Below, piece after piece: positions 13,553 to 18,770 of a stretch of 64,000 nt of DNA. The notes beneath the pieces were generated by a model that saw nothing but the letters and a program-made list of their open reading frames with translations, was not told the origin of the DNA and ran no database searches. Position numbers and translations under genes: made by a program. Position 1 is the first letter of the stretch. Every line of letters begins with the position of its first letter. This stretch comes from Escherichia coli. GTDB lineage: Bacteria; Pseudomonadota; Gammaproteobacteria; Enterobacterales; Enterobacteriaceae. The DNA lies in assembly GCF_024502345.1 (NCBI RefSeq), contig NZ_JALDNN010000001.1; one strand, 5' to 3'.

Positions 13553-14926
13553 TTATTGGTTTTCAGCCAGCTGACGATCGTGGCGACGCTTAAACATCCA
13601 GCCAATCAACAGCACAACAATCCACGCGAAACCGACATACAGCGAGATACGCGTATCCGGGTGATAACCAATCAACCCGATAATAAAGAGCAGGAAAATC
13701 AGCCCGCCGATGGTCGTTGCTACCCCACCCGGCACTTTAAATTTCAGCGCATTAACTTCTTCTGGCGGCAAACGGCGACGGAAGGCAATTTGCGACAGCA
13801 GGATCATAATCCACACCCACACCGTGGCGAAGGTTGCCAGCGAAGCGATCACCAGGAAGACGTTTTCCGGCATGATGTAGTTCAGATACACCGCAAACAG
13901 CAGCGCGGTAGTCATCACCAGCACCGTAACCCACGGAATACCGCGACGCGACGTTTTGCTGAAAATTTTCGGCGCGCTGCCCTGCTCTGCCATACCGTGG
14001 AGCATACGGCCTACGCCAAATACATCACTGTTAATTGCCGACAGCGAAGCAGTCAGCACAACAAAGTTAAGAATGCTGGCGGCAAAGGTAATGCCCATAT
14101 GCTGGAACGTCAGCACGAACGGGCTACCGGCAGTGCCAACCTGATTCCACGGGTAGATAGACATAATGACGAACAGCGTACCGACGTAGAACACCAGAAT
14201 ACGCATCGGCACGGAGTTAATCGCACGCGGTATCGATTTCTCAGGATCTTTCGCTTCACCGGCGGTAATCCCGATAATTTCGATCCCACCGTAAGCAAAC
14301 ATCACCATTTGCAACGACATTACCATGCCAAGCCAGCCGTTACTGAAGAAGCCGCCGTTGCTCCACAGGTTATGAATACCGGTCGGTTGCCCGCCGTTGC
14401 CAATCCCCCAGATGATGATGCCGAAACCGGCGACAATCATGATGATGATGGTGGCGACTTTAAAGAACGAGAACCAGAATTCCAGCTCACCGAAGACCTT
14501 CACGCTCATCAGGTTTACGGCGCAAATGATCAGCACCACGCTCAGTACCCAAATCCAGTGCGGCACCGTCGGGAACCAGACACCCATATAGATACCAAAA
14601 GCGGTCACATCGGCGATGGCGACAATAAGGATTTCAAAGCAGTAGGTCCATCCGGTAATGTAACCTGCCAGCGGGCCGAGGTTTTCCTGCGCATAACGCG
14701 AGAAAGAGCTGGCGGCCGGGTTATGTACCGACATTTCCCCCAGCGCACGCATAATGATATACGCCGCGATACCACCGATAATATAGGCCAACAACACGCT
14801 CGGACCGGCCATTTTGATGGCGTCTGCCGAACCGTAAAACAGCCCGGTGCCAATTGCTGAACCCAGTGCCATAAAGCGTATGTGGCGGGTACTTAGCCCA
14901 CGCTTTAGCTTGTTCTTACTTTCCAT
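13553..14926 (-). CDS. proY: proline-specific permease ProY (APC family)
   Basis: Track ORF 13553..14929 (MMESKNK...); taking the second Met gives the 457 aa amino acid permease. Confidence 0.9.
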
Positions 14927-15001
14927 CAATTCCTAACCCATCAACACAATAAAAAACCACGGGGCATCGCAGCCCCGTGGTTAAAACAAATGTTCAGTGA
15001 T

Positions 15002-16321
15002 TTAGTGAGCGCTGGAGGTCACCTGACGACCTGCCGCGCGATCCCAGATAATGGCCAGAACCACCATCACCACTGTTGGCATTAACCACGCCAGACCTTG
15101 TTCGGCCAGCGGTAAACGCTGCGCCCAGGACGGTAAGATATCGCTGAATGCAGATGCTTTGATCCCGTCGAGAATACCAAAAAGCAGGCTGATAAACATC
15201 GGCGGAGCAATCACGCGGGACGAATTATGCCACCATGAGCGTGTAAAACTTAATACAACCAGTGCGATACACGGCGGATAAATAGCGGTCAGCACCGGTA
15301 CGGAGATCTGGATCAGCTGGCTTAAGCCGAGGTTAGAAACCACCATCGAGAAGCCGCCGAGGATAAACACCAGCGTACGATAAGAGAGCGGTACGTACTG
15401 GGCAAAGAATTCTGCACAAGCACAGGTCAGGCCAACTGCCGTTACCAGGCAGGCGATGAAGATTAACGCCGCCAGCAGGAAGCTACCGCCGCCGCCAAAG
15501 GTGTGCTGAACGTAAGCATGCAGAATAGCAGCGCCGTTTGCAGACTGATCGACCAGCGACGCGCTGTCTGAACCCAGACGGAACAGCGCCAGGTACAGCA
15601 GAGTCAGACCAACACCCGCCATCAGGCCAGCCCAGACGGTATAACGGGTCAGCAGACGCGCTTCGGTAACGCCACGAGAACGCGCCGCGTTAACAATAAC
15701 GATACCAAACACCATTGCGCCCAGCGTATCCATGGTCAGATAGCCGTTAACGAAGCCGTTAGAAAACGCAGCGTTTTGATAAGCCTCAGTCGCCGTGCTG
15801 ATAGAACCCGCCGGCCAGACAATCGCGGCAACAGACAGGATGACCAGCGCGATAATTTTCAGCGGCGCAAGGAAGTTGCCCACGGTATCCAGCAGCTTGC
15901 CCGGATAGAGCGAAACCAGAATAACGATAGCGAAATAGACCAGGCTGTAGATAAACAGCGGCAGCGCGGAATCACCAGTCAGCGGCGCAATCCCCACTTC
16001 AAAGGAAACGGTAGCTGTACGCGGCGTAGCGAAAAGCGGCCCCACCGCCAGGTAACAAACCGTTGCCAGCAGCACGCCAGCGACTTTACCGATTGGCGTG
16101 CTGAGGCTGTCAACACCGCCGCCAACTTTTGCCAGCGCCACTACCGTTAATACCGGCAGGCCAACGGCAGTAATGAGGAAGCCGAATGCCGCAGTCCAGA
16201 CGTGTTCGCCTGCCTGCAAGCCGACCATTGGAGGGAAAATAATGTTACCTGCGCCGACGAACAACGCAAATGTCATAAAGCCCAGAGCGATGATATCGCG
16301 CGATCTTAATTGATGGGTCAT
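15002..16321 (-). CDS. brnQ: branched-chain amino acid transport system 2 carrier BrnQ
   Basis: Track ORF 439 aa, [38 protein letters not shown]... Confidence 0.95.
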
Positions 16322-16669
16322 AAATCATACTGCCTGTGGATGTGGTGTTGTAACGTTAAATTTTTGTGCCAATCCCTGGGGATGATACAGCGGTATATTT
16401 AAACAATTTTAGCGGGAAATACTCCCAACCAGGCGCGGCGAAGAATAGTTTTTCGATTTACCGCGTTAATGCAGTCAGTATGACAGCACCTGAAGCGCAA
16501 TTTAAACGCTTATAACGTTTTAAAGCAAGGAGGGATCTAAAAACCAGAGGTATATAGCGATAAGAAATCACCAACCAGTATAAAACACTATTTCCGTGAA
16601 AAAGACATGGCTAATCATGCGAACAAAAAATCACCAACCGTTGTAAAATCTAACGCCCGTATTTTGACT

Positions 16670-16698
16670 GCAAAGAAAATAAGCCAGCATCGGCTGGC
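16670..16698 (-). terminator. rho-independent terminator after phoR
   Basis: Minus-strand hairpin GCCAGCCGATGCTGGC (16683-16698) followed by TTATTTTCTTT. Confidence 0.6.
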
Positions 16699-16727
16699 TT
16701 ATGGCAATAAAAGATGACAAAGGCGGA

Positions 16728-18023
16728 TTAATCGCTGTTTTTGGCAATTAAACGTTCCGGGATAACAAAACTGAAACGTGTTCCTTTTCCTACTGTACTC
16801 TCAATATTCAGGCGACTTTCGTGATGATTCACAGCATGTTTCACGATCGCTAACCCTAATCCGCTACCGCCGGTTTGCCGGGAACGCGCTTTATCAACGC
16901 GATAAAAACGCTCGGTCAGGCGCGGAATATGCTCCGCTGCAATGCCCGGTCCGTTATCTTCAACGCTAAATTCGGCACCGTGCGGCACTCGCTGCCAGCG
17001 TACGGTGATATGCGTGCCTTCCGGCGTATGATTCACGGCGTTATAGACCAGGTTCGAAATCGCACTGCGTAGCTGATCTTCGTTGCCAGACACCTTGAGG
17101 CCGCTATCTATCTCAAAGGTAAATGTCTGTTTTTTCTGACTCAGAGTCTGAGCCTCACGCTCAACAACGCGCAGCATCATCGGCACATCAACCTTTTCAT
17201 TGAGCAAATGCGTCGGTGCGGCTTCTATTTTCGACAGCGTCAGCAATTGCTTCACCAGCCCTTCCATCCGCTGGGTCTGCTCGCGCATGGTGTGCAACGC
17301 TTTTTCACGTACAGCCCCCTCCAGGGGTTGCTCATCCATCATCTCCAGGTAACCCTGTAACACGGTCAATGGCGTACGTAACTCATGGCTCACGTTGGCA
17401 AAAAAGTTACGCCGCGCCCCTTCCAGTTGATGCATTTGCGTGACATCACGCGCCACCATCAGCAACTGTTTGTGGGTATAAGGCATGACACGAATTTCCA
17501 GATGCCGCCCGGTGTTGAGCACCAGATTGAGCGGGCGAGAAAAATCACGCGTTTTCAGATATTGCGTAAACTCCGGGTAACGCAGCAGGTTAAGGATGTT
17601 CTGCCCATTATCTTCCGGCCAGCGCAAACCAAGAATCTGTTGCGCCAGACCGTTACACCAGAAAATACCGCCCTCTTCCGTGGTCAGCACCACTGCGTCG
17701 GGTAGCGACTCCGCGCCGCTACGAAAGCGTTTAATCAGATTGCCCAGTTCACGGCGGCGTTTTTTATTTCGCAGCTGCATCTGGTGTAAGCCGTATAGCA
17801 GCGGTTCCCAGCTACCACGCCCCGGTGGTGGGGTCATACTACGATCCACCCACAGCCACCATGAAAGGCGCAATAAATTCCAGAAATGCCAGATAAGCAG
17901 TCCCGTTACCGATGCCAGCAAAAACCAGGGTAGGTAACCAAAAAATGCACCCAGGATGAAAGCCGGGAGGCAGCAAAGTAGCAGCTCCAGCACCAGCCTT
18001 TTCCACGACAGCCGTTCCAGCAC
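16728..18023 (-). CDS. phoR: phosphate regulon sensor histidine kinase PhoR
   Basis: Track ORF 431 aa; N-terminal membrane segment, HisKA H-box ([14 protein letters not shown]) and HATPase_c motifs. Confidence 0.95.
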
Positions 18024-18080: not shown

Positions 18081-18770
18081 TTAAAAGCGGGTTGAAAAAC
18101 GATATCCTGTACCGCGCACGGTCTGCACCATGCGGTCATGCCCGCCGGGCTCCAGTGCTTTACGCAGGCGACGAATGTGGACATCGACCGTGCGGTCTTC
18201 CACATACACGTTAGTTCCCCAGACGTGGTTTAACAGCTGCTCGCGGCTGTACACGCGCTCAGGATGCGTCATAAAAAAGTGCAGCAGTTTAAATTCTGTC
18301 GGCCCCATCTCCAGCGGCTCTTCGCCCGCCATCACCCGGTGAGATGTCGGGTCGAGACTTAATCCCTGCATCTCAATCACCTCTTCCACCGCCATTGGCG
18401 AAATACGGCGCATTACCGCTTTGATTCGCGCCACCAGCTCCTTCGGCGAAAACGGCTTGGTGATATAGTCATCCGCGCCGGTTTCAAGGCCGCGCACGCG
18501 ATCTTCTTCTTCCCCTCTGGCGGTCAACATCACCACTGGAATATCCCGGGTCATCGACTCGCGCTTGAGGTGTTTGATGAACTGGATACCGGAGCCGCCA
18601 GGTAACATCCAGTCAAGGAGAATTAAATCCGGCCAGGGTTCATTCAGTTGATTCACAGCACTGTCATAATCTTCCGCTTCGACCGGCTGAAAGCCATTTT
18701 GTTCGAGCACGAAGCAGACCATTTCGCGAATTGGAGCTTCATCTTCTACGACCAGAATACGTCTCGCCAT
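18081..18770 (-). CDS. phoB: phosphate regulon response regulator PhoB
   Basis: Track ORF 229 aa, [29 protein letters not shown]...; OmpR-family winged helix at the C-terminus. Confidence 0.95.

What the first reader, a model, noticed from the sequence alone, without database searches (positions are those of the whole stretch)
16565..16650. Direct repeats AAATCACCAACC(A/G)(G/T)T(A/G)TAAAA in the brnQ 5' region
Two copies of a 21-23 nt motif with an identical 12-nt core, spaced 63 bp apart (16565-16586 and 16628-16650), lie between the phoR terminator and the brnQ start. Phased direct repeats upstream of an amino acid transporter gene suggest a regulator binding site pair (Lrp is a plausible candidate for a branched-chain amino acid carrier) or a leader RNA element.
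Basis: inference. Interest (0 to 1): 0.3.

Follow-up and report, generated by a model that had tools for sequence, protein, structure and literature searches.

The report
Young direct repeat upstream of brnQ
The two repeats are really there, but they are a young, variable sequence coincidence in E. coli, sitting in the already known Lrp-bound control region upstream of the brnQ promoter, and are not a conserved binding-site pair or an RNA leader.

Summary
AAATCACCAACC occurs at 16565 and 16628, 63 bp apart, and the match extends to 20/24 without gaps and 24/30 with one gap. That extended match is unique in the window, with about 0.02 expected by chance.

- **Not conserved.** Across 75 distinct phoR-brnQ spacers from about 20 enterobacterial genera, only this allele has two identical cores. 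The proximal core is among the least conserved stretches. K-12 carries a SNP in the distal core.
- **Not RNA.** Published Cappable-seq on EDL933, whose spacer is identical to the window's, puts all brnQ start sites at 16493, 16470 and 16398, at least 72 bp downstream of the repeats. The stretch also shows no RNA structure.
- **Lrp is plausible for the region.** A genomic SELEX study lists an Lrp peak in this spacer. The two best family-wide matches to the Lrp consensus are 16576-16590 and 16545-16559, 31 bp apart. Only the AT-rich flank of the proximal copy belongs to one of them.
- **Fixed geometry.** The upstream module has invariant length in all genomes.

The only directly seen consequence of the repeats is a precise 63-bp deletion between them in one of about 5,400 genomes, strain A39. 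This is ordinary and of low interest.

The parts
16557..16585 (-). The core GGTTGGTGATTT in brnQ sense is 16565-16576, which is -83 to -72 from the main brnQ start site.
   Evidence: The core is poorly conserved (mean majority fraction 0.53).
16619..16648 (-). The core is 16628-16639, which is -146 to -135. K-12 has A instead of G at 16638.
   Evidence: K-12 SNP.
16576..16590 (-). Lrp-consensus-like box TAGTGTTTTATACTG (TAG-N9-CTG), centred at -90. It overlaps the AT-rich flank and the first base of the proximal copy's core.
   Evidence: 13/15 to YAGHAWATTWTDCTR, one of 11 such hits in 64 kb. Second best family-wide position, mean 11.2/15. Termini Y138, G140, C150, T151, R152 are conserved.
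16545..16559 (-). Second Lrp-consensus-like box CGCTATATACCTCTG, centred at -59, 31 bp from the first box. In many genera it reads TAGCATAATCATCTG.
   Evidence: Best family-wide position, mean 12.0/15, and 75% of sequences score at least 12/15. Permuted-consensus control.
16607..16630 (-). Deeply conserved block TTTTTTGTTCGCATGATTAGCCAT (-137 to -114) of unknown function. Its T-run overlaps the last bases of the distal copy's core. It contains a weak Lrp-like 15-mer at 16608-16622.
   Evidence: Mean majority fraction 0.90 over 75 sequences. Family mean 10.4/15 for the Lrp consensus. No convincing match to the CRP, Pho box, IHF, TyrR or Nac consensus strings.
16500..16528 (-). Core of the main brnQ promoter: -35 TTGCTT (16523-16528), 17-bp spacer, -10 TTAAAT (16500-16505).
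   Evidence: The sequence upstream of the mapped start site was read directly. The stretch is nearly invariant in 75 sequences.
16493..16493 (-). Main brnQ transcription start site (EDL933 481400; 172 nt from the start site to the ATG). Detected in all eight growth conditions.
   Evidence: PMC10469882 Table S5. EDL933 spacer identical to the window, 406/406.
16470..16470 (-). Secondary brnQ start site (EDL933 481423; five conditions).
16398..16398 (-). Stationary-phase-only brnQ start site (EDL933 481495), preceded by TAAAAT.
16679..16702 (-). phoR intrinsic terminator hairpin, followed by a T-run.
16328..16375 (-). Part of the brnQ leader with a CA-rich stretch (ACAACACCACATCCACA, 16335-16351) next to the ribosome-binding site. 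This is the likely GcvB target region.
   Evidence: Near-invariant (0.95). Best predicted pairing with GcvB R1 is at 16346-16375, -24.5 kcal/mol. brnQ is listed as a verified GcvB R1 target in Salmonella and conserved in E. coli (PMC9299463).
16644..16656 (+). Weak antisense promoter. The -10-like TAAAAT (16644-16649) lies inside the distal copy, with an antisense start site at 16656.
   Evidence: EDL933 antisense start site 481237, seen in one of eight conditions. Mapped.

Best explanation
The two copies are a real but evolutionarily young and polymorphic coincidence of sequence. They lie inside the fixed-geometry upstream control region of the brnQ promoter. brnQ is transcribed mainly from 16493 (-35 TTGCTT, -10 TTAAAT). 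Upstream lies a 145-bp module whose length is invariant across enterobacterial genera. It contains two conserved Lrp-type boxes (YAG-N9-CTR) centred at -59 and -90, three helical turns apart, and a deeply conserved block at -137 to -114. By inference, an Lrp oligomer occupies this module, and the spacer is a published Lrp SELEX target. GcvB acts later, on the CA-rich leader. The proximal copy consists of the 3' part of the -90 Lrp box plus the unconserved linker after it. The distal copy consists of unconserved sequence plus the T-run edge of the conserved block. The identical 12-mer itself is not a recognised element. Its only demonstrable consequence is that it can mediate a precise 63-bp slippage deletion. 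Separately, the AT-rich flank of the distal copy (outside the 12-mer) carries a weak antisense -10 (TAAAAT).
For: - **Conservation.** In-register identity of the two cores is 12/12 only in the window and 10/12 or less in 73 of the other 74 distinct spacers (one could not be scored in register). Repeat similarity is seen only within Escherichia.
- **Polymorphism.** K-12 has GATTGGTGATTT in the distal copy.
- **Separate histories.** Each copy aligns to its own orthologous position, and the distance between those positions never varies. Spacer positions 98-181 are 84 nt in 75/75 sequences, and 88-232 are 145 nt in 74/75, whether or not the repeat is present.
- **Start sites.** 16493, 16470 and 16398 are all downstream of both copies.
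- **Lrp.** SELEX peak in the spacer. The top two of 392 positions for family-wide match to the Lrp consensus are 31 bp apart. Both scores are reached together by only 0.4% of 2,000 column-permuted consensus strings.
- **Deletion.** Strain A39 has an exact 63-bp deletion that keeps one 12-mer, with brnQ intact.
Against: - No base-resolution Lrp footprint or in vivo ChIP at this locus could be retrieved, so the Lrp boxes are inferred from a degenerate consensus.
- The 20/24 similarity is rarer than chance (0.02 expected per window). A selective or templated origin in the E. coli lineage therefore cannot be excluded.
- 63 bp equals two Lrp box spacings, and each core contains a G-N3-TTT motif of the kind reported in Lrp sites. 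A contribution of both copies to an extended Lrp complex in E. coli is therefore possible.
- The effect of Lrp on brnQ expression was not found in the papers searched.
Confidence: 0.7

Rival explanations
1. The two copies are a functional pair of binding sites for one regulator, Lrp or another protein, placed six helical turns apart on the same face of the DNA. They would have been acquired or sharpened in the E. coli lineage.
For: - The similarity exceeds chance.
- The SELEX peak lies between the copies.
- Spacing of 63 bp is twice 31.5 bp, the same period as the conserved Lrp-like boxes.
- TAG-N9-C(T/G)G precedes both cores.
- Each core contains a G-N3-TTT motif, of the kind described for Lrp sites.
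Against: - The cores are not conserved, even in E. albertii and the cryptic Escherichia clades.
- They are polymorphic in E. coli itself.
- The distal flank matches the Lrp consensus only 9/15 (hand count).
- The proximal core is among the least conserved stretches.
- A natural strain lacks one copy.
Confidence: 0.12
2. The identity arose by a templated event, such as short-patch gene conversion or template switching between the two box-plus-linker units. It would have no function of its own.
For: Compared with sister Escherichia clades (GTCTGG), the E. coli distal copy carries two adjacent changes (G[G/A]TTGG) that raise identity to the proximal copy. The same repeats do recombine, as the A39 deletion shows.
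Against: Two substitutions are also compatible with independent drift. No polarity or tract can be demonstrated from these data.
Confidence: 0.1
3. The repeats are remnants of an old 63-bp tandem duplication of the upstream region.
For: The arrangement is head to tail, and the similarity extends weakly to about 30 nt.
Against: There is no similarity over the rest of the units. Genomes without the repeat have exactly the same spacing, so no unit was added. The conserved parts of the two units are unrelated.
Confidence: 0.03
4. The repeats are part of a brnQ leader RNA, such as an attenuator, a riboswitch, or a mimic of the sRNA binding site.
For: The sense strand is G/U-rich and could in principle pair with the CA-rich site near the ribosome-binding site (-15.0 and -8.5 kcal/mol for the proximal and distal copies).
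Against: - All mapped brnQ start sites are at least 72 nt downstream of the repeats.
- The phoR terminator lies upstream.
- Folding z-score is +0.30.
- There is no Rfam hit.
- No conserved small ORF or leader peptide is present.
- The repeats are not conserved.
Confidence: 0.02

Closest known systems
Multi-site Lrp control regions (ilvIH, pap, livJ/livK, artPIQM)
   Same: Several adjacent Lrp-type boxes (CAG-N9 AT-rich-CTG) with about three helical turns between centres lie upstream of an amino-acid-related promoter. The spacer is an Lrp genomic-SELEX target.
   Different: The boxes here are inferred, not footprinted. The direction of any Lrp effect on brnQ is unknown.
Short direct repeats as substrates for slippage or microhomology deletion
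   Same: One complete genome (A39) has lost exactly the 63 bp between the copies and kept one 12-mer.
   Different: It is rare, 1 of about 5,400 genomes. There is no sign that it is a programmed switch.
Direct-repeat operators of OmpR/PhoB-type response regulators (for example Pho boxes next door at phoB)
   Same: Direct rather than inverted repeats upstream of a promoter.
   Different: Those repeats are 10-11 bp apart and conserved. Here the spacing is 63 bp, the cores are unconserved, and the Pho-box consensus scores poorly.
Leader-based control of branched-chain amino acid genes (ilv and leu leader peptides; T-box leaders of Firmicute brnQ)
   Same: The target is a branched-chain amino acid gene with a long, conserved 5' region.
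   Different: The repeats are not transcribed with brnQ. No leader peptide, terminator or conserved fold is present. The known RNA-level control here is GcvB pairing near the ribosome-binding site.

Membership tests
Lrp binding site | [quoted passage not shown] | tested here: inconclusive
   Proximal copy: its flank is part of a 13/15 match at 16576-16590. Distal copy flank: 9/15 by hand count. The shared 12-mer core lies outside the consensus. The form of the consensus is confirmed. The exact IUPAC string is from my own knowledge (Cui et al. 1995).
Lrp binding site | Binding by Lrp protein | not testable with these tools
   Only region-level published evidence exists: a genomic SELEX peak at 418534 in the phoR>brnQ spacer. 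No footprint or ChIP data could be retrieved.
Lrp binding site | Several adjacent sites with about 30-bp centre-to-centre spacing | tested here: met
   This is met by the conserved boxes 16576-16590 and 16545-16559, 31 bp apart, with a weaker third box 32 bp further upstream (control). It is not met by the two repeat copies as such.
Lrp binding site | Conservation of the site in orthologous promoters | tested here: not met
   This applies to the repeated cores. Identical cores occur only in the window allele, and the proximal core scores 0.53 majority fraction. By contrast, the box termini are conserved.
cis-regulatory leader RNA (attenuator or riboswitch) | Lies within the transcribed 5' UTR | tested here: not met
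   Start sites at 16493, 16470 and 16398. The repeats are at 16565-16650.
cis-regulatory leader RNA (attenuator or riboswitch) | Stable or conserved secondary structure, or membership of a known RNA family | tested here: not met
   z = +0.30 against shuffles. No Rfam hit apart from noise.
Tandem duplication | Similarity across the whole unit, and extra length relative to genomes without it | tested here: not met
   Similarity is limited to about 30 nt. The module length is identical in all 75 sequences.
Slippage-prone direct repeat | A deletion allele that removes exactly one unit and keeps one copy | tested here: met
   The A39 spacer is the window spacer minus 63 bp between the 12-mers, and otherwise 343/343 identical.

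The most novel reading that the evidence does not exclude
The invariant-length 145-bp module upstream of the brnQ promoter may be a stereospecific nucleoprotein platform. Its near-invariant 24-bp block (TTTTTTGTTCGCATGATTAGCCAT, 16607-16630) matches none of the consensus strings tried. That block would dock an unidentified regulator that works together with an Lrp array. In E. coli alleles with two perfect 12-mers, the upstream half of the platform can be excised by slippage, as in strain A39, giving natural variants of brnQ control.
Probability: 0.15. Interest if true: 0.35.

Novelty: already known. Interest (0 to 1): 0.12.

Why it matters
It matters little for the repeats themselves. The check shows that an eye-catching phased repeat can be a lineage-specific accident, and that comparison across genera separates it from the parts that are really constrained.

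The useful by-product is a base-level map of the brnQ control region:
- start sites;
- core promoter;
- two conserved Lrp-type boxes 31 bp apart;
- a conserved block of unknown function;
- strict length conservation;
- the GcvB target region.

This map could guide experiments on how uptake of branched-chain amino acids is tied to Lrp.

Tried and rejected
1. **An upstream promoter.** I first read the conserved yATAwT at 16551-16556 as the -10 of a promoter starting near 16544, which would have put the proximal copy on a -35. That hexamer is instead the AT-rich centre of the best Lrp-like box.
2. **Simple promoter scan.** It found no sigma-70-like site in the spacer. The real main promoter has a weak -35 and escapes the scan's thresholds.
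3. **Start-site searches that found nothing.** Thomason 2015 and the published (PMC) version of Kroner 2019 are not held under the ids I tried, although the Kroner preprint was read; the Sharma 2011 GcvB paper and Cho 2008 are not held either. The Cappable-seq MG1655, ROSE and Shigella M90T supplements held no brnQ entry. No Rend-seq supplements are held, and none for the Kroner preprint.
4. **Small ORFs.** ORFs on either strand, including the 36-aa antisense ORF that starts in the conserved block, are interrupted in most genera.
5. **Leader structure.** The consensus RNA structure of the leader is only a trivial hairpin.
6. **Other regulators.** Consensus scans for CRP, Pho box, IHF, TyrR and Nac gave no convincing conserved match. 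These strings are from memory, so this is a lead rather than a test.
7. **Paralogues.** The region has no second copy in E. coli; it is single-copy in 5,424 genomes.
8. **Failed analyses.** An unrestricted duplexfold of the whole leader against GcvB was meaningless and was replaced by a windowed scan. The junction BLAST could not count deletion alleles, because the tool joins the two pieces.
9. **Salmonella.** It was not among the 80 loci returned, and I did not fetch it.

Full report
**Context**

The window is E. coli, with this region in reverse orientation. On the minus strand lie phoB (18081-18770), phoR (16728-18023), brnQ (15002-16321) and proY (13553-14929). The 406-nt phoR-brnQ spacer (16322-16727) is present in 5,424 of 5,426 complete E. 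coli genomes and carries no annotation. It is identical, 406/406, to the spacer of O157:H7 EDL933. It differs from K-12 MG1655 at two positions. Below, 'spacer position p' is counted in brnQ sense, so that window coordinate = 16728 - p.

Yes. AAATCACCAACC occurs at 16565 and 16628 on the + strand and nowhere else in the window, even with one mismatch.
- The ungapped similarity is 20/24 with spacing 63.
- With one gap it is 24/30.
- An exact 12-mer pair within 100 nt is not unusual at the scale of 64 kb: there are 3 in the window, and 27% of simulated windows have at least one.
- The 20/24 match is the only one in the window, with 0.02 expected per simulated window.

**Conservation**

One scan of species-representative genomes returned 80 loci from about 20 enterobacterial genera, with BrnQ 83-100% identical. 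Of these, 78 have phoR upstream. Most spacers are 397-423 nt, and the 75 distinct sequences under 500 nt, including the window's own, were aligned.

The spacer contains strongly conserved blocks, but the repeats are not among them.
- The two cores compared in register are 12/12 identical only in the window.
- E. albertii scores 10/12, the other Escherichia clades 8-9/12, and most genera 2-7/12.
- Searching each genome for a second copy of its own distal motif gives a signal only within Escherichia, apart from a weaker, differently sequenced in-register similarity in Kluyvera and a few other genera (z about 2.6-3.3).
- The proximal core has a mean majority fraction of 0.53, among the lowest in the spacer. 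The neighbouring blocks reach 0.90-0.95.

Within E. coli the identity is polymorphic.
- K-12 reads GATTGGTGATTT in the distal copy.
- Of 5,359 genomes matched, 3,425 are identical to the window over 16606-16670.

**Not a duplication**

Each copy aligns to its own orthologous position in every genus, and the distance between those positions never changes.
- Spacer positions 98-181 are 84 nt long in 75 of 75 sequences.
- Positions 88-232 are 145 nt long in 74 of 75.
- The stretches on either side vary in length: 27-40 nt upstream and 105-126 nt downstream.

So the 63-bp spacing is a property of a length-constrained module that exists with or without the repeat.

**Where transcription starts**

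Cappable-seq of EDL933 (PMC10469882, Table S5) lists three brnQ start sites.

| EDL933 coordinate | Conditions detected | Window coordinate |
|---|---|---|
| 481400 | all eight | 16493 |
| 481423 | five | 16470 |
| 481495 | stationary phase only | 16398 |

- Because the spacers are identical, the window coordinates follow directly.
- The main site is preceded by TTGCTT, a 17-bp spacer and TTAAAT, all nearly invariant across genera.
- The same table gives 103 nt as the RegulonDB distance for K-12.
- Relative to the main start site, the proximal core lies at -83 to -72 and the distal core at -146 to -135.
- Both copies are therefore upstream DNA, not leader RNA.
- In agreement, the stretch does not fold better than shuffles (z = +0.30), Rfam finds nothing, the leader has no consensus structure, and no small ORF is conserved.

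**Lrp**

Shimada et al. 2015 list the phoR>brnQ spacer among 314 Lrp genomic-SELEX sites, at position 418534. In the old MG1655 numbering this is spacer position about 126, between the copies. I take the resolution to be roughly 100 bp, which is my assumption.

[quoted passage not shown] Lrp-regulated promoters commonly carry several adjacent sites.
- In the window, the only 13/15 match to YAGHAWATTWTDCTR in the spacer is TAGTGTTTTATACTG at 16576-16590. It is one of 11 such hits in 64 kb.
- Scoring every spacer position across all 75 sequences, the two best of 392 positions are 16545-16559 (mean 12.0/15) and 16576-16590 (mean 11.2/15), exactly 31 bp apart.
- A weaker one (10.4/15) lies 32 bp further upstream, inside the conserved block.
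- With 2,000 column-permuted versions of the consensus, both scores are reached together in 0.4% of cases. A 30-32 bp spacing of the top two occurs in 1.4%.
- The termini Y-R-G ... C-T-R are conserved at both boxes.

I therefore infer a phased Lrp array centred at -59 and -90, possibly extending to about -122. This is inference from a degenerate consensus plus region-level published binding, not a footprint.

**What the repeats are, in this map**

- The proximal copy is the 3' two-thirds of the -90 box plus the unconserved linker that follows it.
- The distal copy is unconserved sequence plus the T-run that begins the conserved block TTTTTTGTTCGCATGATTAGCCAT (16607-16630).
- The flank of the distal copy resembles the box form (TAG-N9-CGG) but matches the consensus only 9/15 and is not conserved.
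- The shared 12-mer lies outside the recognised part of either box.

The best reading is that two T/G-rich linker stretches drifted to identity in the E. coli lineage. A short templated conversion may have helped, because the distal copy differs from sister clades by two adjacent changes that raise identity.

**Consequences that can be seen**

- **Deletion.** Strain A39 (NZ_CP028737.1) has a spacer identical to the window's, except for a precise 63-bp deletion that leaves one 12-mer. The deletion removes the conserved block and the -90 box. brnQ is intact. It is the only such genome among about 5,400.
- **Antisense transcription.** On the opposite strand, the AT-rich flank of the distal copy is a -10-like TAAAAT (16644-16649). 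A weak antisense start site at 16656 was seen in one of eight conditions.

**Comparison with known systems**

The region works like other multi-site Lrp control regions and is already listed as an Lrp target. The RNA-level control of brnQ by GcvB is also known. Consistent with that, a near-invariant CA-rich stretch sits next to the ribosome-binding site, and the best predicted pairing with GcvB R1 is at 16346-16375. The repeats add nothing categorically new.

What remains unexplained is the 24-bp conserved block and the strict length conservation of the 145-bp module. None of the consensus strings I tried (CRP, Pho box, IHF, TyrR, Nac) fits the block.

**Verdict**

The feature is ordinary and of low interest.

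Noticed in passing
window 16577-16639 (deleted stretch); locus L085 2916-3258 (the strain A39 spacer): E. coli strain A39 (NZ_CP028737.1, from rodent faeces, Australia) has a precise 63-bp deletion between the two 12-mers. It removes the conserved block and one Lrp-like box. brnQ is intact. It is the only such genome among about 5,400.
   Followed up: yes
window 16496-16640 (spacer positions 88-232): This 145-bp stretch upstream of, and including, the brnQ core promoter has exactly the same length in 74 of 75 distinct enterobacterial sequences, and 84 nt of it in 75 of 75. Parts of it are poorly conserved in sequence, and the flanking stretches vary in length. This points to a stereospecific protein-DNA architecture.
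   Followed up: partly
window 16607-16630: The near-invariant block TTTTTTGTTCGCATGATTAGCCAT lies at -137 to -114 from the main brnQ start site. It matches none of the regulator consensus strings tried, and no ORF through it is conserved. Its function is unexplained.
   Followed up: partly
window 16545-16559 and 16576-16590: Two conserved Lrp-consensus-like boxes lie 31 bp apart, centred at -59 and -90. They are the two best family-wide matches in the spacer. Two weaker boxes, also 31 bp apart, lie in the leader at 16441-16455 and 16410-16424, next to the stationary-phase start site.
   Followed up: partly
window 16335-16375: A near-invariant CA-rich stretch (ACAACACCACATCCACA) sits just upstream of the brnQ ribosome-binding site. 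The best predicted pairing with the G/U-rich R1 region of GcvB is at 16346-16375 (-24.5 kcal/mol). This fits brnQ being a reported GcvB target.
   Followed up: partly
window 16644-16656 (+): A weak antisense start site at 16656 (EDL933 481237, one of eight conditions) is driven by a TAAAAT that is part of the distal repeat copy.
   Followed up: partly
window 16638: K-12 MG1655 has A where the window has G, inside the distal 12-mer. In K-12 the exact shared core is therefore only 10 nt. The second spacer difference from K-12 (spacer position 35, window 16693) lies in the loop of the phoR terminator hairpin.
   Followed up: yes
locus L003, about 1354-2500: In Escherichia sp. MOD1-EC7003 the phoR-brnQ spacer is 1,147 nt long. 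By eye, the inserted sequence looks like REP/BIME-type palindromic repeats, placed at the phoR terminator. The regulatory module downstream is intact.
   Followed up: no
window 16500-16523: The spacer between the -35 and -10 of the main brnQ promoter is an almost invariant imperfect palindrome, TTTAAAACG-TTATAAG-CGTTTAAA. This looks like an operator overlapping the core promoter, but no regulator could be assigned.
   Followed up: no
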